Source of the DNA: Escherichia phage ECO07P1
DNA: 64,000 nucleotides
Reading direction: 5' to 3' (one strand)
Sequence record: OP172784
The notes below the pieces were generated by a model. It had not been told where the DNA came from, ran no database searches, and saw only the letters and a program-made list of their open reading frames with translations. How positions within the stretch are numbered: the stretch's first letter is position 1; every line of letters starts with the position of its first letter. Positions 6,658-50,887 of this stretch are shown here, piece after piece. A program made the position numbers and the translations under genes.

Positions 6658-8085
6658 GTGGTAGAAATTATTCTTTCTCATCTCATATTTGATCAAGCTT
6701 ATTTTTCAAAAGTTTGGCCATATATGGATTCAGAATATTTTGAAAGTGGTCCAGCTAAAAATACATTCAAATTAATTAAATCTCATGTTAATGAGTACCA
6801 TAGCGTTCCATCTATTAATGCGTTAAATGTTGCATTAGAAAATAGTTCATTTACTGAAACAGAATATTCTGGTGTAAAAACACTTATTTCAAAACTAGCT
6901 GATTCTCCAGAAGACCATAGCTGGTTAGTAAAAGAAACAGAAAAATACGTTCAGCAAAGGGCGATGTTTAATGCTACGTCTAAAATAATTGAAATTCAAA
7001 CTAATGCTGAGCTTCCTCCGGAAAAACGAAATAAGAAAATGCCAGATGTAGGTGCTATTCCTGACATCATGCGTCAAGCATTATCAATTTCATTTGATAG
7101 CTACGTTGGCCATGATTGGATGGATGACTACGAAGCACGTTGGCTATCTTATATGAATAAAGCTCGTAAGGTTCCATTTAAACTCAAAATTCTAAATAAA
7201 ATTACTAAAGGCGGAGCTGAGACTGGAACACTGAACGTTTTAATGGCTGGTGTTAACGTTGGTAAGTCATTAGGATTATGTTCATTAGCAGCAGATTATT
7301 TACAGCTCGGACATAATGTTCTTTACATTTCCATGGAAATGGCAGAAGAAGTCTGTGCTAAGCGTATTGATGCTAATATGCTTGATGTTTCTCTTGATGA
7401 CATTGATGATGGACATATTTCTTACGCTGAATATAAAGGAAAAATGGAAAAATGGCGTGAGAAATCTACTCTCGGTCGTTTAATCGTTAAACAGTATCCT
7501 ACTGGTGGAGCAGACGCTAATACATTTCGATCGCTTTTAAACGAATTAAAGCTCAAGAAGAATTTTGTTCCAACAATCATTATTGTCGACTATCTAGGTA
7601 TTTGTAAATCTTGTCGCATCAGAGTTTATTCAGAAAATAGTTACACAACTGTTAAAGCTATCGCAGAGGAATTGCGTGCTCTGGCTGTTGAAACCGAAAC
7701 TGTTCTTTGGACCGCAGCACAAGTTGGTAAGCAAGCTTGGGATTCTTCTGATGTTAACATGAGCGATATTGCAGAATCTGCCGGTCTTCCAGCAACAGCC
7801 GATTTTATGCTTGCGGTCATTGAAACCGAGGAGTTAGCAGCGGCTGAACAGCAACTCATTAAGCAAATCAAATCACGATATGGCGATAAGAATAAATGGA
7901 ATAAGTTTTTGATGGGTGTTCAAAAAGGAAATCAAAAATGGGTAGAAATTGAGCAAGATTCTACTCCAACCGAAGTGAACGAAGTAGCAGGTTCACAGCA
8001 GATTCAGGCTGAACAGAATCGCTATCAAAGAAATGAATCTACTCGAGCCCAGTTAGATGCTTTAGCAAATGAATTAAAATTTTAG
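6658..8085 (+). CDS. 41: gp41 replicative DNA helicase (DnaB-like), GTG start
   Basis: 475 aa; Walker A GVNVGKS; GTG start with GGAG SD; matches T4 gp41. Confidence 0.95.
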   Translation: MVEIILSHLIFDQAYFSKVWPYMDSEYFESGPAKNTFKLIKSHVNEYHSVPSINALNVALENSSFTETEYSGVKTLISKLADSPEDHSWLVKETEKYVQQRAMFNATSKIIEIQTNAELPPEKRNKKMPDVGAIPDIMRQALSISFDSYVGHDWMDDYEARWLSYMNKARKVPFKLKILNKITKGGAETGTLNVLMAGVNVGKSLGLCSLAADYLQLGHNVLYISMEMAEEVCAKRIDANMLDVSLDDIDDGHISYAEYKGKMEKWREKSTLGRLIVKQYPTGGADANTFRSLLNELKLKKNFVPTIIIVDYLGICKSCRIRVYSENSYTTVKAIAEELRALAVETETVLWTAAQVGKQAWDSSDVNMSDIAESAGLPATADFMLAVIETEELAAAEQQLIKQIKSRYGDKNKWNKFLMGVQKGNQKWVEIEQDSTPTEVNEVAGSQQIQAEQNRYQRNESTRAQLDALANELKF

Positions 8086-19002: not shown

Positions 19003-19237
19003 ATTAAGTTTGCATCAGTTTAAATCTCTTATGGCAAATGTTAAAGCTGTCATTCAAGAAAATTCAGGACCTGATAATGTTACTATTCGCGAAAAAGCTT
19101 TAAAGATAGTATACAGTCTTGAAGAGATACAAAAAGATATTGAATCTATGGCAAAATTTATTGATGAGCCCATTAATAAAGTTTATATCCAAGATTATAC
19201 TGTAGGTCAAATTCGCGATTTAGCGAGGAAAATTTAA
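18995..19237 (+). CDS. Hypothetical protein (T4 dexA.1 position)
   Basis: ATG at 18995 in ATGA overlap with previous stop; track ORF begins 18962. Confidence 0.45.
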   Translation: MIELSLHQFKSLMANVKAVIQENSGPDNVTIREKALKIVYSLEEIQKDIESMAKFIDEPINKVYIQDYTVGQIRDLARKI

Positions 19238-19920
19238 TGTTTGATTTTATTATAGATTTTGAAACAATGGGAAGTGGTGAAAAAGCAGCTGTTATTGATT
19301 TGGCTGTTATTGCCTTTGACCCTAATCCAGAAGTAGTTGAATCATTTGATGAATTAGTTTCACGCGGCATTAAAATCAAATTTGATTTAAAAAGTCAAAA
19401 AGGACATCGTCTTTTTACTAAAAGCACTATCGAATGGTGGAAAAATCAATCTCCTGAAGCTCGAAAAAATATTGCACCATCAGATGAAGATGTAAGCACT
19501 ATCGATGGTATTGCAAAATTTAATGATTACATCAATGCACATAACATCGATCCTTGGAAATCTCAAGGCTGGTGCCGTGGAATGTCGTTTGATTTTCCAA
19601 TTTTAGTCGATCTCATTCGCGATATTCAACGTCTTAATGGCGTTTCTGAGAATGAACTTGACACATTTAAGTTAGAACCATGTAAATTCTGGAATCAGCG
19701 TGATATTCGTACCAGAATTGAAGCACTTCTTCTTGTTCGTGATATGACCACGTGTCCTCTTCCAAAGGGAACTTTAGATGGATTCGTTGCACATGATTCT
19801 ATTCATGACTGTGCGAAAGACATCCTGATGATGAAGTATGCTTTACGATATGCTATGGGTCTTGAAGATGCTCCGTCAAAGGAAGATTGCGATCCTCTAT
19901 CCCTTCCAACAAAACGATAA
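19237..19920 (+). CDS. dexA: DexA exonuclease A
   Basis: 227 aa; DEDD-type exonuclease features; matches T4 DexA size and position. Confidence 0.8.
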   Translation: MFDFIIDFETMGSGEKAAVIDLAVIAFDPNPEVVESFDELVSRGIKIKFDLKSQKGHRLFTKSTIEWWKNQSPEARKNIAPSDEDVSTIDGIAKFNDYINAHNIDPWKSQGWCRGMSFDFPILVDLIRDIQRLNGVSENELDTFKLEPCKFWNQRDIRTRIEALLLVRDMTTCPLPKGTLDGFVAHDSIHDCAKDILMMKYALRYAMGLEDAPSKEDCDPLSLPTKR

Positions 19921-19926
19921 AAAGTT

Positions 19927-19956
19927 GTTTACTTCCTCGGTTAGTTGTGGTATTAT
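19927..19956 (+). promoter_or_regulatory. T4-type early promoter
   Basis: GTTTAC 19927-19932, 18-bp spacer, TATTAT. Confidence 0.45.
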
Positions 19957-19983
19957 AACACCATAGCTACTGAGGATAATAAA

Positions 19984-20484
19984 ATGAAAATTTATCGTGT
20001 TGAATCATCTTTTAGTATTCTTAATTATGAAGATGCTATAACAATACGTCGAAATCTTTGTGTTCAAATAACGCCGTACAGGAGTATAATAGATTCATGG
20101 AGCGAAGAGTGGTTATTACACGTAGGTTATGATAGACCTAATTTTATGCATCATAGCGATAATAATAAAAGAATTCCTTTACCACACGAAGATAAACTAT
20201 TAGTTAAAAACGCTAATATAGTAATTAATACTAAGTTCAAGAAAGATTATGTTGGAGTAGAATATCATATTCCCGGATGGTTTATAGGTCTTTATCATTT
20301 TGCTTTCGCTAGTGAATATGATATGATGAGATGGTTCACACGAGAAGAGCGTGAAGAATTAGCTTCTAAAGGATTTTATCTTGCTGTATACGAAGTTCCT
20401 GAAGATGAAGTTATAATTGGCGGACACCAAGTAATGTTCCGTAAATCGCATGCTGAATTAAAAGGCTTTATTACTTTAGGCTAA
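19984..20484 (+). CDS. Hypothetical protein (166 aa; possibly MotB-like by position)
   Basis: ATG at 19984 with GAGGA SD; track ORF starts at TTG inside the promoter. Confidence 0.45.
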   Translation: MKIYRVESSFSILNYEDAITIRRNLCVQITPYRSIIDSWSEEWLLHVGYDRPNFMHHSDNNKRIPLPHEDKLLVKNANIVINTKFKKDYVGVEYHIPGWFIGLYHFAFASEYDMMRWFTREEREELASKGFYLAVYEVPEDEVIIGGHQVMFRKSHAELKGFITLG

Positions 20485-20494
20485 AGAGAAAATC

Positions 20495-20929
20495 ATGATT
20501 AAAATTAATACTGTTTACAAATTGAAAAAATCCCCTAAAATTGATTTATCAACAATGTCTAATACGACTTATGGTAAGTTTTGGGACCTTCTTGGTGTAA
20601 CTTATGGGTATCCTTTTACTGTTATTAGCGTTAATAGCGGAATTCTTATTGGTACAGTGTACATGGAAATTAGAAACTATCATGGAACAGTATCATCATT
20701 TATCATCTATGAAGAAGATTTTAATCTATTGACAGAAATTGAAAAACCTGAAGATCCGACTGATTTGTTGTGTAAGGCGGTTTACATTCGTCGTCCATTT
20801 GCGAATCCGATTGGTGGTTGGGTAACTGACCAATGGATTGAAGATGGCGTTGAACTTCTTAATGTAGTTCATGCTGGAGAATACTCTGTAGTTCCTCGCA
20901 GCGCAGTGATTAATGTTCGTGTAAGCTAG
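20495..20929 (+). CDS. Hypothetical protein, paralogue A (C-terminal TDQWIEDGV domain)
   Basis: 144-aa ORF; C-terminus shares a roughly 35-aa motif with the next gene. Confidence 0.5.
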   Translation: MIKINTVYKLKKSPKIDLSTMSNTTYGKFWDLLGVTYGYPFTVISVNSGILIGTVYMEIRNYHGTVSSFIIYEEDFNLLTEIEKPEDPTDLLCKAVYIRRPFANPIGGWVTDQWIEDGVELLNVVHAGEYSVVPRSAVINVRVS

Positions 20930-20958
20930 TTTACAAACTCTTGGGACCAGAGTATAAT
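20929..20958 (+). promoter_or_regulatory. T4-type early promoter
   Basis: GTTTAC 20929-20934, 18-bp spacer, TATAAT 20953-20958. Confidence 0.5.
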
Positions 20959-21002
20959 GGTCCTGTGGAGTATAAAATCTTTTTAACAAGTGAGAGATAA
21001 CT

Positions 21003-21500
21003 ATGATTATTAATATTGGTGAATTAGCTCGTGTATCTGATAAATCCCGTTCTAAAGCAGCAGGAAAATTGGTCGAAATTGTAAGCATTCAGCTTAAACA
21101 TGGCGTTAAAGATGAAGATTCTGAAGTAAAAGTGCGTATCATTCCTAAAGATGGAAAGTCTAAACCTCAGTTTGGCTATGTTCGTGCGAAATTTCTTGAA
21201 TCTGCATTTTTGAAAGCTGTTCCTGCTAAAGGAATTGAAACGATTGATACTTCGCATGTAGGTGTAGACTTTAAGTGGAAACTCGGTCAAGCTATTAAGT
21301 TCGTTGCTCCTTATGAATTCGAATTTACTGAAGATGAGGAAGGGGTTGTTCAAAAACACCGTACTCGTGCTATGTGCGCATACATTACCGATCAGTGGGT
21401 AGAAGATGGTGTTAAGCTGTACAACGCGGTATTTTTAGGAACATACAAAGTCATTCCTGAAAGTTGGATTAAACACTACAGCAAAGCTCGTTGTGCATAA
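21003..21500 (+). CDS. Hypothetical protein, paralogue B (C-terminal TDQWVEDGV domain)
   Basis: 165-aa ORF; shares C-terminal motif with 20495..20929. Confidence 0.5.
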   Translation: MIINIGELARVSDKSRSKAAGKLVEIVSIQLKHGVKDEDSEVKVRIIPKDGKSKPQFGYVRAKFLESAFLKAVPAKGIETIDTSHVGVDFKWKLGQAIKFVAPYEFEFTEDEEGVVQKHRTRAMCAYITDQWVEDGVKLYNAVFLGTYKVIPESWIKHYSKARCA

Positions 21501-21596
21501 AGTTTAAATTTTTTCATAAAACTATATACATCAGTAGTTGATTATGGTACTATATCAATATCAACTACTGATACAGAAAACAACTTGGAGAATAAA

Positions 21597-21866
21597 ATGG
21601 AAAACTTAATTATCATCGAACAATCTTTCAACGATTATGGTATGGCTTATGGTTATCGTGCGATAATGGAAGATTCTCGTGGATGTGTTATCGATATTGC
21701 TGAATGTAAAGATTTACTGCAGCTTTTGAAGATTGTTCGCAAAAATTGGGATTGTGAAAACATTAAAGTTCGTGTTGTAACGGAAGAAGAAACTGTTTTT
21801 CATGATGTAAAATTTGCCAAAGGTGCTGCTACTCTTCTGAAACGCATCGCTCCACTGTTCAATTAA
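21597..21866 (+). CDS. Hypothetical protein
   Basis: ATG at 21597 with GGAG SD; track ORF begins at TTG 21585. Confidence 0.45.
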   Translation: MENLIIIEQSFNDYGMAYGYRAIMEDSRGCVIDIAECKDLLQLLKIVRKNWDCENIKVRVVTEEETVFHDVKFAKGAATLLKRIAPLFN

Positions 21867-21879
21867 TGAGGAAATTGTA

Positions 21880-22095
21880 ATGAAACATAAAATTGTTCAG
21901 AATTGCACTAATGACGAATTTGAAGATGTATTATTCGATCCAGATTTGGTAGTAGTTCAAAAGGAACACACCGTTAAGTTTACTCACTTGACTTCGGTTT
22001 ATGTGTATGAAAAGGTTGGTGATAAACAACCGATTTATGGTGTATTCCGTGAAATCACTGAAGACGGTACAACTTACTGGAAGGAAATTTATTAA
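21880..22095 (+). CDS. Hypothetical protein (71 aa)
   Basis: ORF with GAGGA SD. Confidence 0.45.
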
Positions 22096-22499
22096 TGGCT
22101 ATTAGATTTGAAGTTAATAAATGGTATCAATTTAAAAATAAACAAGCTCAAGAAGCTTTTATTAAAGACCATACTGATAACGGAATCTACGCACGACGTT
22201 TAGGTATGGAACCTTTTAAAATTTTAGATGTTGACCATCTCAGTCGTCCTACTAAAATTGTGACATCCACAGGTGTACTCAAACGTTGTGCCGGAGCTGA
22301 TATCCTTGACGAAAACTTTATTTGGCTCTCTACTAACGAAGCTGAGTTCTTTGATGAAGTGGAAAATCCATACCAAGCTTCTGAAGAGCAAGAACAGATA
22401 GAAGATTTCACAGAATTCCCGGTAATGAAAGTTACTATTGAAAATAATGAACATGCATGGTCCTTGTATCAGATGTTGAAAGCACATTTTAAGGAATAA
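22095..22499 (+). CDS. Hypothetical acidic protein
   Basis: 134-aa ORF, TAATG coupling. Confidence 0.45.
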
Positions 22500-22501
22500 T
22501 T

Positions 22502-22678
22502 ATGCCAATGTATGATTATAAATGCCAATCCGAAGATTGCGGGCATGAATATGAAAAAATTAAAAAGATTTCTGAACGAGAAAATGATGTTTGCCCTAAA
22601 TGTCATCGTCTGTCTATTCGTCGGCCTTCTGCTCCTAAGCATGTGAATGGCGGTTTTTACGACTTACTTAAAGGGTAA
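22502..22678 (+). CDS. Small zinc-ribbon protein (58 aa, CxxC...CxxC)
   Basis: MPMYDYKCQSEDCGHEY...CPKCHRL; below track cutoff. Confidence 0.4.
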   Translation: MPMYDYKCQSEDCGHEYEKIKKISERENDVCPKCHRLSIRRPSAPKHVNGGFYDLLKG

Positions 22679-22680
22679 TT

Positions 22681-23052
22681 ATGTTTAAAATCAGTAAGAA
22701 GTATCGTATTCGCGAAGGCGAAGAAAAGAAATATCTATTTTCTGCTATTTATAGGAATGGTTCTATTAGTAATGTAATATCTACAAGCGAATTTATCGTT
22801 GAAGATATGAAGGGTAATAATGTTACAATGATTAGTACAGCATCTGGAAATGATGGAAAAATTCTTCACAGTTTTCAGAGTAATGTTCTAATTTATGATG
22901 AAGAGTTTGACCTATTCGAAGAAGTTACAGAAGATTTTGATTTTGGATGCACCATCACTATGAAATCTGGTGACCCTCTTTCTTTTACAGTTAAAGATGA
23001 AAGAAGTCGCTTGAGAATTATTAGTCTCCTTCAAGCCATTAAATTTGAGTGA
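22681..23052 (+). CDS. Hypothetical protein
   Basis: 123-aa ORF. Confidence 0.45.
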   Translation: MFKISKKYRIREGEEKKYLFSAIYRNGSISNVISTSEFIVEDMKGNNVTMISTASGNDGKILHSFQSNVLIYDEEFDLFEEVTEDFDFGCTITMKSGDPLSFTVKDERSRLRIISLLQAIKFE

Positions 23053-23056
23053 AATT

Positions 23057-23317
23057 ATGAAATATGTTAATCGTTCTATCGCGGCAATAGTATTAGCAGT
23101 ATCTTTAGTAGGATGTACTGATGCTGATAATGCAACCAAAGTTTTGTCTTCAAGTGGTTTTACTAATATTGAAATCACTGGATATAATTGGTTCGGTTGC
23201 TCTGAAAATGATTTCCAACATACTGGATTTCGTGCTATTGGACCTACCGGGCAGAAAGTAGAAGGAACCGTATGTTCTGGTCTATTCTTCAAGGATTCGA
23301 CTATCCGTTTTAAATAA
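23057..23317 (+). CDS. Putative lipoprotein (86 aa)
   Basis: ATG at 23057; signal peptide with LVGC lipobox. Confidence 0.5.
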   Translation: MKYVNRSIAAIVLAVSLVGCTDADNATKVLSSSGFTNIEITGYNWFGCSENDFQHTGFRAIGPTGQKVEGTVCSGLFFKDSTIRFK

Positions 23318-23334
23318 AAGGCCTTCGGGCCTTT
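23317..23334 (+). terminator. CUUCGG-type hairpin after lipoprotein gene
   Basis: aaaggcc-ttcg-ggccttt. Confidence 0.45.
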
Positions 23335-23386
23335 AGCTTTATGATTACCGGAGTATAATATTCCCGAAACCAAACGAGGATAAGTG

Positions 23387-25204
23387 ATGATTAAGAATGA
23401 AATTAAAATTCTGAGCGATATTGAACATATCAAAAAGCGTAGCGGCATGTATATTGGCTCTTCTGCTAATGAAATGCATGAGCGCTTTCTGTTTGGTAAA
23501 TGGGAAAGTGTTCAGTATGTACCTGGTCTTGTTAAGCTTATTGATGAAATTATCGATAACTCAGTAGATGAAGGTATTCGTACTAAGTTTAAATTCGCGA
23601 ATAAAATTAATGTTACTATTAAAAACAATCAAGTAACAGTTGAAGATAACGGTCGTGGTATTCCACAGGCGATGGTTAAAACACCTACCGGTGAAGAAAT
23701 TCCTGGTCCTGTTGCTGCATGGACTATTCCAAAAGCAGGTGGTAACTTCGGTGATGACAAAGAACGCGTCACTGGCGGTATGAACGGTGTTGGTTCTAGT
23801 TTAACTAACATTTTTTCTGTGATGTTTGTCGGTGAAACTGGCGACGGTCAAAATAATATTGTAGTTCGTTGTTCAAACGGCATGGAAAATAAATCATGGG
23901 AAACTATTCCTGGAAAATGGAAAGGAACTCGCGTTACTTTCATTCCTGATTTTATGTCATTTGAAACTAATGAGCTATCTCAAGTTTATCTTGACATTAC
24001 ACTAGATCGTCTCCAGACACTTGCAGTAGTTTATCCTGATATTCAATTTACCTTTAATGGTAAAAAGGTTCAGGGCAATTTTAAGAAGTATGCACGCCAG
24101 TATGATGAGCATGCTATCGTTCAAGAACAGGAAAATTGCTCTATTGCGGTTGGTCGTTCACCTGATGGTTTTCGTCAATTAACATACGTCAATAACATTC
24201 ATACTAAGAATGGTGGTCATCACATTGACTGTGTTATGGATGATATTTGTGAAGACCTTATTCCACAAATCAAACGTAAATTTAAAATTGATGTAACTAA
24301 AGCACGTGTTAAAGAATGTTTGACTATCGTTATGTTTGTTCGTGATATGAAAAACATGCGATTTGATTCTCAAACTAAAGAGCGTTTGACTTCTCCATTT
24401 GGTGAAATTCGTAGTCATATTCAGCTTGATGCTAAAAAGATTTCACGTGCTATTTTAAATAATGAAGCAATTTTAATGCCAATTATTGAAGCTGCTTTGG
24501 CTCGTAAATTGGCGGCAGAAAAAGCGGCAGAAACTAAAGCAGCTAAAAAGGCTTCTAAAGCTAAGGTTCATAAACATATTAAAGCGAATCTTTGTGGTAA
24601 AGATGCTGACACTACTCTTTTCTTGACTGAGGGTGATTCCGCTATCGGATATCTTATTGATGTTCGTGATAAAGAACTTCATGGTGGTTATCCATTACGT
24701 GGTAAAGTTCTCAACAGTTGGGGTATGTCATATGCTGATATGCTTAAAAACAAAGAACTGTTTGATATTTGCGCAATCACTGGATTAGTTCTTGGTGAAA
24801 AAGCCGAAAACTTGAATTATCATAATATTGCTATTATGACCGATGCTGACCATGATGGTCTAGGAAGCATTTATCCTTCTCTGCTCGGATTTTTTAGTAA
24901 TTGGCCAGAACTGTTTGAACAAGGAAGAATTCGCTTTGTCAAAACTCCTGTAATCATCGCTCAGGTCGGTAAAAAACAAGAATGGTTTTATACAGTCGCT
25001 GAATATGAGAGTGCTAAAGATGCTCTACCTAAACATAGCATCCGTTATATTAAGGGACTTGGCTCTTTGGAAAAATCTGAATATCGTGAGATGATTCAAA
25101 ATCCAGTATATGATGTTGTTAAACTTCCTGAGAACTGGAAAGAGCTTTTTGAAATGCTCATGGGAGATAATGCTGACCTTCGTAAAGAATGGATGAGTCA
25201 GTAG
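23387..25204 (+). CDS. 39: Topoisomerase II large subunit gp39, uninterrupted (contains the region encoded by T4 gene 60)
   Basis: 605 aa; GyrB-like ATPase N-terminus; C-terminal third is continuous with the sequence I recall for T4 gp60 (NIAIMTDADHDGLGSIYPSLLGFF...). Confidence 0.9.
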   Translation: MIKNEIKILSDIEHIKKRSGMYIGSSANEMHERFLFGKWESVQYVPGLVKLIDEIIDNSVDEGIRTKFKFANKINVTIKNNQVTVEDNGRGIPQAMVKTPTGEEIPGPVAAWTIPKAGGNFGDDKERVTGGMNGVGSSLTNIFSVMFVGETGDGQNNIVVRCSNGMENKSWETIPGKWKGTRVTFIPDFMSFETNELSQVYLDITLDRLQTLAVVYPDIQFTFNGKKVQGNFKKYARQYDEHAIVQEQENCSIAVGRSPDGFRQLTYVNNIHTKNGGHHIDCVMDDICEDLIPQIKRKFKIDVTKARVKECLTIVMFVRDMKNMRFDSQTKERLTSPFGEIRSHIQLDAKKISRAILNNEAILMPIIEAALARKLAAEKAAETKAAKKASKAKVHKHIKANLCGKDADTTLFLTEGDSAIGYLIDVRDKELHGGYPLRGKVLNSWGMSYADMLKNKELFDICAITGLVLGEKAENLNYHNIAIMTDADHDGLGSIYPSLLGFFSNWPELFEQGRIRFVKTPVIIAQVGKKQEWFYTVAEYESAKDALPKHSIRYIKGLGSLEKSEYREMIQNPVYDVVKLPENWKELFEMLMGDNADLRKEWMSQ

Positions 25205-50644: not shown

Positions 50645-50883
50645 GTGAAAACACTAAATTTGCTTAAGGTTGGGGAAGACATAGATATTGTTGATATCTA
50701 CAAAAATCTAACTTATTATGATAATTTATTTGTCGTTCAAACTTTAAATGGTGATTACTATACGGTTTCTTTAGTGCGAAATAAATTTAAAAACAAATTT
50801 TACTTTTGCATTTATAATTATCATGGCCAACGCTCTAGCAATTATATTGAACCGTCTGACATATTTTATATTGAGGAATTAAA

Positions 50884-50887
<4 letters not shown>
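50645..50887 (+). CDS. Hypothetical protein (80 aa), GTG start
   Basis: GAGGA SD 7 nt before GTG. Confidence 0.4.

What the first reader, a model, noticed from the sequence alone, without database searches (positions are those of the whole stretch)
20495..21500. Adjacent paralogous genes sharing a C-terminal TDQW(I/V)EDGV domain
The 144-aa and 165-aa proteins have unrelated N-termini but end in a conserved block: WVTDQWIEDGVELLNVVHAGEYSVVP versus YITDQWVEDGVKLYNAVFLGTYKVIP. The second gene is preceded by its own early promoter, which argues for tandem duplication of a functional module followed by divergence.
Basis: seen in the sequence. Interest (0 to 1): 0.45.

Follow-up and report, generated by a model that had tools for sequence, protein, structure and literature searches.

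The report
Known motB.1–motB shared C-terminal domain
The two neighbouring genes are the T4-type phage early genes motB.1 and motB. They do share a real C-terminal domain, but this was published in 2021, so the finding is correct and ordinary.

Summary
The window is a Tequatrovirus, 100% identical to Escherichia phage ECO07P3. ORF 20495-20929 (144 aa) is MotB.1 and ORF 21003-21500 (165 aa) is MotB. Their C-termini are homologous: BLASTP E 3e-10, and profile-profile probability 98-99% with E 1e-14 to 8e-18. Their N-termini are unrelated in sequence (probability 0.1%).

The shared domain and the duplication idea were already published by Patterson-West et al. 2021 (Viruses 13:84). MotB.1's N-terminal LSm-like domain was described by Kim et al. 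2025.

What I add:
- The shared unit is the whole 59-78 aa, five-strand all-beta domain. MotB carries a ~16-aa hairpin insertion in it.
- Whole-protein models hit SH3-like barrels (Tudor/KOW). I did not see the OB fold proposed earlier.
- The shared domain is acidic, whereas MotB's N-terminal domain is strongly basic. The shared module is therefore more likely a partner-docking unit than the DNA-binding surface. This is inference.
- The copies are old: third-codon-position identity is 36%.
- Rare relatives combine a MotB-type N-terminus with a MotB.1-type C-terminus, so domains were shuffled.
- The module is an orphan of enterobacterial T4-like phages.
- The T4 reference motB.1 carries a +1 G frameshift that removes most of this domain.

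The parts
20495..20929 (+). motB.1 coding sequence (144 aa, full-length form)
   Evidence: ORF. phrog_2333 E 3.7e-65. It lies between motB.2 and motB, as in T4. It is 86-90% identical to the 143/144-aa MotB.1 of T4T, JoYop and FL23.
20495..20746 (+). MotB.1 N-terminal domain (residues 1-84): LSm/SH3-like beta domain of the GoF/MotB.1/Frd.2 family
   Evidence: The AF2 model has strands 7-10, 41-48, 54-60, 66-72 and 79-82 and a helix at 23-36. Published as an LSm-like fold (PMC12152347). hhalign to the GoF-like ORF 22681-23052 gives E 2.6e-4 over 80 columns.
20750..20926 (+). MotB.1 C-terminal domain (residues 86-144): shared five-strand beta module, acidic (pI 4.75)
   Evidence: hhalign. Alignment A5. 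AF2 strands 95-100, 103-116, 119-126, 129-134 and 138-142, with pLDDT 87-93. Charge.
20819..20902 (+). Most conserved core of the module in MotB.1 (WVTDQWIEDGVELLNVVHAGEYSVVPRS)
   Evidence: tblastn reciprocal hit, 57% identity over 28 aa. Invariant columns D, W, E, G, L, N, V.
20930..20958 (+). Promoter-like site in front of motB: TTTACA, 17-nt spacer, TATAAT. The motB.1 stop codon abuts the -35 hexamer.
   Evidence: Consensus scan, 11 of 12 matches, the best site in the region. The 84-nt intergenic stretch differs from T4 at one base. Activity was not tested here.
20937..20971 (+). Hairpin (ACUCU-GGGACCA / UGGUCCU-GGAGU) whose loop holds the -10 hexamer
   Evidence: RNA fold of 20925-21005: -22.3 kcal/mol, z -3.1 against shuffles. 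No Rfam match. Role unknown.
21003..21500 (+). motB coding sequence (165 aa)
   Evidence: Pfam PF17613 E 2.3e-99 over the full length. phrog_1671 E 4.5e-76. Synteny with T4 motB.
21003..21206 (+). MotB N-terminal domain (residues 1-68): basic KOW/SH3-like domain (net +5, pI 9.75)
21207..21251 (+). MotB inter-domain linker (residues 69-83), predicted disordered
   Evidence: pLDDT below 50 for residues 69-83. Length is variable among homologues.
21264..21497 (+). MotB C-terminal domain (residues 88-165): the same module with a ~16-aa insertion in the first hairpin
   Evidence: Alignment A5. hhalign. AF2 strands 97-112, 115-134, 137-144, 147-152 and 156-159, with pLDDT 84-96.
21381..21464 (+). 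Most conserved core of the module in MotB (YITDQWVEDGVKLYNAVFLGTYKVIPES)
   Evidence: 57% nucleotide identity to 20819-20902, and 36% at third codon positions.

Best explanation
Shown:
- These are the early genes motB.1 and motB of a T4-like phage (Tequatrovirus).
- They share one homologous C-terminal domain of about 59 aa in MotB.1 and 78 aa in MotB. MotB has about 16 extra residues in its first beta-hairpin.
- This domain is joined to two different N-terminal domains: an LSm/SH3-like domain of the GoF/Frd.2 family in MotB.1, and a strongly basic KOW-like domain in MotB.
- The two copies are old, and protein-level selection keeps them similar. Third-codon-position identity is near random.
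- The module has been recombined with different N-termini in related phages.
- motB.1 follows motB.2 after a 10-nt gap. motB has its own near-consensus early-type promoter.

Known from the literature:
- MotB binds DNA tightly and without sequence specificity.
- It co-purifies with the host nucleoid proteins H-NS and StpA and changes the H-NS footprint.
- It roughly doubles burst size.

Inferred (my confidence about 0.35):
- The shared C-terminal module is not the DNA-binding surface. It is a small acidic, aromatic-rich SH3-like barrel that docks both proteins onto a common, probably basic, partner or onto each other.
- The N-terminal domains then supply the different nucleic-acid activities: DNA through MotB's basic KOW-like domain, and possibly RNA through MotB.1's LSm-like domain.
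For: Identity:
- 100% match to phage ECO07P3.
- Same gene order as T4: dexA, motB.2, motB.1, motB, cef, goF.
- Pfam and PHROG assignments.

Homology of the C-terminal domains only.

Published precedent for the shared domain and for duplication: PMC7827196. LSm-like N-terminus of MotB.1: PMC12152347.

Fold:
- AF2 models with pLDDT 85 and 80. Both C-terminal domains have five strands with a short helical turn between strands 4 and 5.

Charge:
- The shared domain has pI 4.3-5.4 in 19 of 20 MotB.1-type members and is acidic or neutral in 26 of 30 MotB members.
- MotB's N-terminal domain has pI of about 9-10.8 in 27 of 30 members. The exceptions are P0155 (7.97), P0238 and P0240.
- No basic residue is conserved across both paralogues in alignment A5. 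The columns conserved in at least 90% of sequences are L, F, G, D, Q, W, E, G, L, N, V, G, V and P.

Age.

Shuffling: 6 representatives with a KOW-type N-terminus plus a MotB.1-type C-terminus, 7 with two LSm-type repeats, and 0 with an LSm-type N-terminus plus a MotB-type C-terminus.

Distribution:
- 781 phage records and 1492 places, about two per genome, all enterobacterial T4-likes.
- Only 32 representatives among 1.84 billion proteins, of which 4 are long repeat proteins; the two I inspected look spurious.
Against: - The identification has no serious counter-evidence.
- For the mechanism, nothing here tests binding.
- The 2021 paper assigned the MotB C-terminal domain to an OB/cold-shock DNA-binding fold by HHpred and left open that it binds DNA.
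- The two conserved tryptophans could stack on bases.
- A few MotB C-terminal domains are mildly basic, pI 8.6-9.0.
- EF-P and EfpL also appear among the hits.
Confidence: 0.8

Rival explanations
1. The shared C-terminal domain is itself a nucleic-acid-binding OB-fold or cold-shock-like domain. On this view both MotB and MotB.1 bind DNA or RNA through it, and the N-termini modulate specificity.
Against: - The domain is acidic in most members, and no basic residue is conserved between the paralogues.
- Full-length MotB.1 is acidic overall.
- In the models the helical turn sits between strands 4 and 5, as in SH3-like barrels, not between strands 3 and 4 as in an OB fold.
- A profile search of PDB sequences finds nothing.
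Confidence: 0.25
2. The shared domain is a homo- or hetero-oligomerisation module. MotB and MotB.1 would assemble with themselves or with each other through it, for example to bridge DNA segments.
For: Both genes are adjacent and early. T4 MotB.1 runs as monomer and dimer on non-reducing SDS gels (PMC12152347). A conserved Cys lies in the LLCK motif at the start of the domain.
Against: The dimer was seen with the 13.8-kDa T4 reference form, which lacks most of the domain, and only without reducing agent. That points to a disulfide, not to a domain interface. No multimer prediction could be run here.
Confidence: 0.2
3. The resemblance results from recent gene conversion between neighbouring genes, or from chance or compositional bias, and not from an old conserved module.
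For: The genes are adjacent. The most similar block is short, 28 aa at 57% identity.
Against: - Third-codon-position identity is 36%, and only 7 of 16 identical residues use the same codon.
- Homology extends over the whole domain in profile comparisons.
- Both subtypes are separately conserved across hundreds of phages.
- E-values range from 3e-10 to 8e-18.
Confidence: 0.02

Closest known systems
T4 MotB (Pfam PF17613, 'modifier of transcription'; Patterson-West et al. 2018 and 2021)
   Same: The 165-aa protein is an orthologue: a full-length Pfam match with E 2e-99, the same genome position, and about 90% identity to the Tequatrovirus MotB cluster P0128. It has a basic KOW-like N-terminus followed by the C-terminal domain.
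   Different: It is three residues longer than T4 MotB (162 aa), with a small change in the hairpin insertion (TEDEEGVVQKH versus IKDDGRVVY). Nothing functional was tested.
T4 MotB.1 (NP_049627; phrog_2333; 'Category 2' MotB.1 group of Patterson-West 2021; LSm-like family of Kim et al. 2025)
   Same: Same position between motB.2 and motB. The aligned part is 86-90% identical to close relatives, including the 143-aa MotB.1 of T4T and other T4 strains. It has the LSm-like N-terminus.
   Different: The window protein is the full-length 144-aa form with an intact C-terminal domain. The T4 reference protein stops at residue 119 because of one extra G inside the TDQWI/EDGV codons.
SH3-like beta-barrel domains (Tudor, KOW, PWWP, chromo, BAH core)
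   Different: Sequence identity is only 8-23% and there is no sequence-level relationship. No methyl-lysine cage or other defining site was tested. The per-domain assignment was not resolved.
Other phage proteins that counter H-NS (T7 gp5.5, T4 Arn)
   Same: Like MotB, these are early phage proteins linked to the host nucleoid protein H-NS (literature cited).
   Different: T7 gp5.5 binds the H-NS oligomerisation domain, and Arn is a DNA mimic. MotB associates with H-NS only in the presence of DNA. No homology to either was observed here.

Membership tests
MotB (Pfam PF17613) | Full-length match to the family profile above the gathering score | tested here: met
   The 165-aa protein scores 330.3 bits against a cut-off of 25, with residues 1-163 matching profile positions 1-160 of 162.
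MotB (Pfam PF17613) | The same full-length match, tested on the 144-aa protein | tested here: not met
   Only residues 103-138 match profile positions 118-153 (32.9 bits). The N-terminal profiles are unrelated (hhalign probability 0.1%). It shares a domain with MotB but is not a MotB orthologue.
MotB (Pfam PF17613) | Basic KOW-like N-terminal domain with the conserved VS..S.SK..G motif | tested here: met
   The 165-aa protein has RVSDKSRSKAAGK. Residues G6, V11, S12, S15, S17 and G21 are invariant in 30 homologues. Net charge is +5 and pI 9.75.
MotB (Pfam PF17613) | Sequence-nonspecific DNA binding, H-NS/StpA co-purification, toxicity in E. coli | not testable with these tools
   Known only for T4 MotB (PMC6070864 and PMC7827196).
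MotB.1 (phrog_2333) | Full-length profile match and position between motB.2 and motB | tested here: met
   phrog_2333 E 3.7e-65 over residues 1-143. Gene order as in T4 and T4T.
GoF/MotB.1/Frd.2 LSm-like fold family (Kim et al. 2025) | N-terminal bent five-stranded antiparallel beta-sheet | tested here: met
GoF/MotB.1/Frd.2 LSm-like fold family (Kim et al. 2025) | Detectable sequence relationship to GoF-type proteins | tested here: inconclusive
   hhalign of A2 against the GoF-like ORF 22681-23052 gives E 2.6e-4 and probability 42% over 80 columns. Against GoF 22095-22499 it gives probability 0.5%. phrog_2333 hits the 123-aa ORF at E 0.0011.
OB-fold / cold-shock DNA-binding domain (proposed for the MotB C-terminal domain in 2021) | Five-strand barrel with a helix between strands 3 and 4, and structural neighbours that are OB folds | tested here: inconclusive
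Tudor / 'royal family' methyl-lysine readers | Aromatic cage that binds methylated Lys or Arg | not tested
   The fold resemblance and the conserved W, W, Y/F, D and E residues are only a lead. No cage geometry was examined.

The most novel reading that the evidence does not exclude
The shared acidic, tryptophan-rich SH3/Tudor-like C-terminal barrel could be a dedicated docking module. It would bring two different nucleic-acid-binding heads, the DNA-binding KOW-like head of MotB and the LSm-like head of MotB.1, to the same basic host target, for example H-NS/StpA. In that case motB.1 and motB would act as a two-part system against the host nucleoid or xenogeneic silencing. MotB.1's contribution would have been missed because the experiments followed the T4 reference sequence, which truncates MotB.1 inside this module.
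Probability: 0.15. Interest if true: 0.5.

Novelty: already known. Interest (0 to 1): 0.2.

Why it matters
The core finding matters little. The shared C-terminal domain of MotB and MotB.1, and the duplication hypothesis, are already in the literature.

The side results have modest practical value for T4 biologists:
- The T4 reference motB.1 is frameshifted inside the shared domain. The published negative results for a 13.8-kDa MotB.1 may therefore describe a protein that lacks that domain.
- The charge pattern points to MotB's N-terminal domain, not the shared C-terminal domain, as the likely DNA-binding part. This redirects the obvious domain-dissection experiment.
- Hybrid architectures show that the module is mobile among early genes of T4-like phages.

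Tried and rejected
- Chance or short-motif similarity: rejected by the pairwise and profile statistics.
- Recent gene conversion: rejected by codon-position analysis.
- Further copies of the module in the window: none found by six-frame tblastn.
- Internal duplication, meaning N-terminal and C-terminal domains of one protein being related in sequence: hhalign probabilities are 4% or less.
- Sequence relatives with solved structures: none for MotB, for the C-terminal-domain profile (the best hit is an oxidoreductase at E 1.2) or for MotB.2.
- A structured RNA family in the region: no Rfam match.
- Reading the T4 genome review (PMC150520) for a promoter name: the paper is not held. That the 20930-20958 site is an active early promoter therefore rests on the consensus match and on conservation, not on a citation.
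- The 570-842-aa repeat-protein hits in the representative search (P0259, P0263, P0264, P0266): I inspected P0259 and P0263. They are repeat proteins with 6-7 short matched stretches, and I judged all four spurious.

Full report
**What the window is.** Region 19200-23400 is 100% identical to Escherichia phage ECO07P3 and 94-98% identical to many other Tequatrovirus genomes. Compared with the annotated T4 record, the gene order here is as follows:
- dexA (19237-19920)
- motB.2 (about 19984-20484)
- motB.1 (20495-20929)
- motB (21003-21500)
- an extra ORF (21585-21866)
- cef (21880-22095)
- goF (22095-22499)
- 39.2 (22502-22678)
- an extra goF-like ORF (22681-23052)
- a 39.1-position ORF
- gene 39 (from 23384)

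**Checking the observation.** The ORFs and the quoted peptides are exactly as described.
- BLASTP aligns MotB.1 98-136 with MotB 116-154: 16/39 identical, E 3e-10.
- Pfam's MotB model covers the 165-aa protein end to end (E 2e-99). It covers only residues 103-138 of the 144-aa protein (32.9 bits, cut-off 25).
- PHROGs gives the mirror-image picture.
- I collected homologues of each protein and aligned them (A2 and A3). Profile-profile comparison gives probability 98.3%, E 1.1e-14, over 50 columns, MotB.1 91-140 against MotB 93-158.
- With the domains separated, C-terminus against C-terminus gives probability 99%, E 8e-18. N-terminus against N-terminus gives probability 0.1%. No N-to-C comparison exceeds 4%.
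- A joint alignment of the C-terminal domains (A5) shows that homology runs from the D-x-x-(D/W)-x-L segment at the start of the domain to the V-(V/I)-P-(R/E)-S segment near the end. MotB carries an insertion of about 16 residues in the first hairpin.
- The window holds only these two copies.

**It is already known.** Patterson-West et al. [quoted passage not shown] Kim et al. 2025 (PMC12152347) describe the MotB.1 N-terminal domain as an LSm-like fold shared with GoF and Frd.2. A full-text search finds only these two papers mentioning MotB.1.

**Anatomy and fold.**
- AF2 models built on the family alignments are reasonably confident: MotB.1 mean pLDDT 85.1 and MotB 79.8, with a disordered linker at residues 69-83.
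- Each protein is two small all-beta domains. In all four domains the last two strands are separated by a short helical turn.
- I read both proteins as tandem SH3-like barrels. The OB-fold assignment proposed for the MotB C-terminal domain in 2021 is not what these models suggest.
- Foldseek against viral models recovers MotB.1-type proteins, MotB-type regulators, a KOW-domain protein and, weakly, GoF.

**Charge pattern.**
- MotB's N-terminal domain is strongly basic in 27 of 30 homologues: net +4 to +8 (one at +2), pI roughly 9-10.8.
- The shared C-terminal domain is acidic in 19 of 20 MotB.1-type members (pI 4.3-5.4). It is acidic or neutral in 26 of 30 MotB members.
- No basic residue is conserved across both paralogues. 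The columns conserved in at least 90% of sequences are L, F, G, D, Q, W, E, G, L, N, V, G, V and P.
- MotB binds DNA tightly and without sequence specificity (PMC6070864). The basic KOW-like N-terminus is therefore the more plausible DNA-binding part. The shared module is more plausibly a docking or assembly unit.
- This is inference only, and I put it at about 0.35.

**Origin.**
- The two core blocks are 57% identical in DNA, with 36% identity at third codon positions. Only 7 of 16 identical residues use the same codon. The copies are old and are kept similar by selection on the protein, not by recent gene conversion.
- I classified all 266 proteins retrieved with domain HMMs:
  - 122 have a MotB-type N-terminus with a MotB-type C-terminus.
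  - 124 have an LSm-type N-terminus with a MotB.1-type C-terminus; 7 of these have two LSm-type repeats.
  - 6 have a MotB-type N-terminus with a MotB.1-type C-terminus (P0248, P0249, P0251, P0255, P0256, P0257).
  - 2 are intermediates (P0246, P0250).
  - None has an LSm-type N-terminus with a MotB-type C-terminus.
- This pattern fits domain shuffling. It is compatible with an ancestor of KOW-like N-terminus plus a MotB.1-like C-terminal domain, with the LSm-like head fused on later and the hairpin insertion being derived in MotB.
- "Tandem duplication then divergence" is therefore right for the module and wrong for the N-termini.

**Distribution.**
- tblastn of the MotB.1 C-terminal domain against 50,697 phage records finds 781 records and 1492 places, about two per genome. 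All are T4-like phages of Escherichia, Shigella, Yersinia, Klebsiella, Salmonella, Enterobacter, Citrobacter and Kosakonia.
- A profile of the module searched against 1.84 billion representative proteins finds only 32 hits at E of 0.001 or better. Four of these are long repeat proteins; the two I inspected look spurious.
- No relative has a solved structure.
- The module is a narrow orphan of this phage group.

**Promoter.** TTTACA-17 nt-TATAAT at 20930-20958 is the best sigma-70-type match in the region, 11 of 12. The motB.1 stop codon abuts the -35 hexamer. The 84-nt intergenic stretch differs from T4 at one base only. motB.1 itself starts 10 nt after motB.2, which suggests co-transcription with motB.2. 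The claim of "its own early promoter" is reasonable but was not tested here. The overall count of promoter-like sites in the region is no higher than in shuffled sequence.

**Side observation worth recording.**
- The T4 reference record (NC_000866.4) encodes a 119-aa MotB.1 ending ...TDQWIGRWR*. Relative to the window and to the resequenced strain T4T, it has one extra G (ATTGGAAGAT instead of ATTGAAGAT). The downstream frame still encodes the rest of the domain.
- The 143-aa form is recorded on 256 contigs, including T4T and other T4 strain records. The 119-aa form is recorded on 2.
- The truncation removes about 25 residues, which is three of the five strands of the shared domain.
- Neither paper's main text mentions a frameshift or truncation.
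- Kim et al. report MotB.1 as 13.8 kDa and cite the NC_000866.4 sequence for their T4 constructs. Their null results for MotB.1 may therefore concern a protein without an intact C-terminal domain.

**Verdict.** The finding is already known. Interest is low (0.2). The remaining open question is what the shared module binds.

Noticed in passing
window 20840-20845, compared with L001 (NC_000866.4, record positions about 7304-7305) and L003 (T4T HM137666): The T4 reference motB.1 has one extra G inside the TDQWI/EDGV codons. This gives a 119-aa protein that lacks three of the five strands of the shared domain. T4T, other T4 strain records and nearly all relatives encode 143-144 aa. Published MotB.1 experiments report the 13.8-kDa form, and neither paper's main text mentions the truncation.
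   Followed up: yes
proteins P0248, P0249, P0251, P0255, P0256, P0257 (hybrids); P0246, P0250 (intermediates); P0051, P0055 (two LSm-type repeats): Metagenomic and phage relatives combine a MotB-type KOW-like N-terminus with a MotB.1-type C-terminal domain. Others carry two LSm-type repeats before the C-terminal domain. None combines an LSm-type N-terminus with a MotB-type C-terminal domain. This indicates domain shuffling within the family.
   Followed up: partly
proteins P0015, P0023, P0027, P0031, P0255-P0257 (absent from the window's 144-aa MotB.1; possibly ETIDTSHVGV in MotB, window about 21234-21263): A short conserved linker motif, roughly I-D-x-D-(V/L)-x-S-M-Y-x-T-P-(V/I), precedes the shared C-terminal domain in many members with either kind of N-terminus. 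The window's MotB.1 lacks the 22-aa segment that carries it.
   Followed up: no
window 20937-20971: A stable hairpin (7-bp GGGACCA/UGGUCCU stem extended by ACUCU/GGAGU; fold z-score -3.1) lies directly after the motB.1 stop codon. It holds the -10 hexamer of the motB promoter in its loop. One arm contains a GGAG. There is no Rfam match, and the sequence is almost identical in T4. Its role (a 3' stabiliser of the upstream transcript, attenuation or processing) is unknown.
   Followed up: partly
window 21585-21866, 22502-22678 and 22681-23052: The gene content differs from T4 between motB and gene 39. There is an extra about 90-aa ORF (phrog_3720) between motB and cef. The 39.2 zinc-ribbon ORF is longer, 58 aa against 45. 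There is an extra 123-aa GoF-like paralogue (phrog_622, E 7.5e-26) whose N-terminus weakly matches the MotB.1 N-terminal profile (E 2.6e-4).
   Followed up: partly
window 50645-50887 (+): An 80-aa ORF with no Pfam match shows weak similarity to the MotB.1 N-terminal domain (tblastn E 0.049 over 81 aa; compare ...[24 protein letters not shown] with ...RNYHGTVSSFIIYEEDFNLLTEIEK). By position it may belong to the frd.2 region and to the LSm-like family.
   Followed up: partly
window 19984-20484 (motB.2): MotB.2 has only a sub-threshold Pfam hit to an SRA domain (E 0.09) and no relative in PDB sequences. The hit is probably noise. An SRA-like base-flipping domain would be notable in a phage with modified cytosine, so it might merit a structure prediction.
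   Followed up: partly
proteins P0013, P0018, P0242-P0244: Several MotB.1 sequences are deposited as Enterococcus faecalis proteins on very short contigs (345-3900 bp). Given that the family is otherwise restricted to enterobacterial T4-like phages, this is most likely T4-like phage contamination of those assemblies.
   Followed up: no
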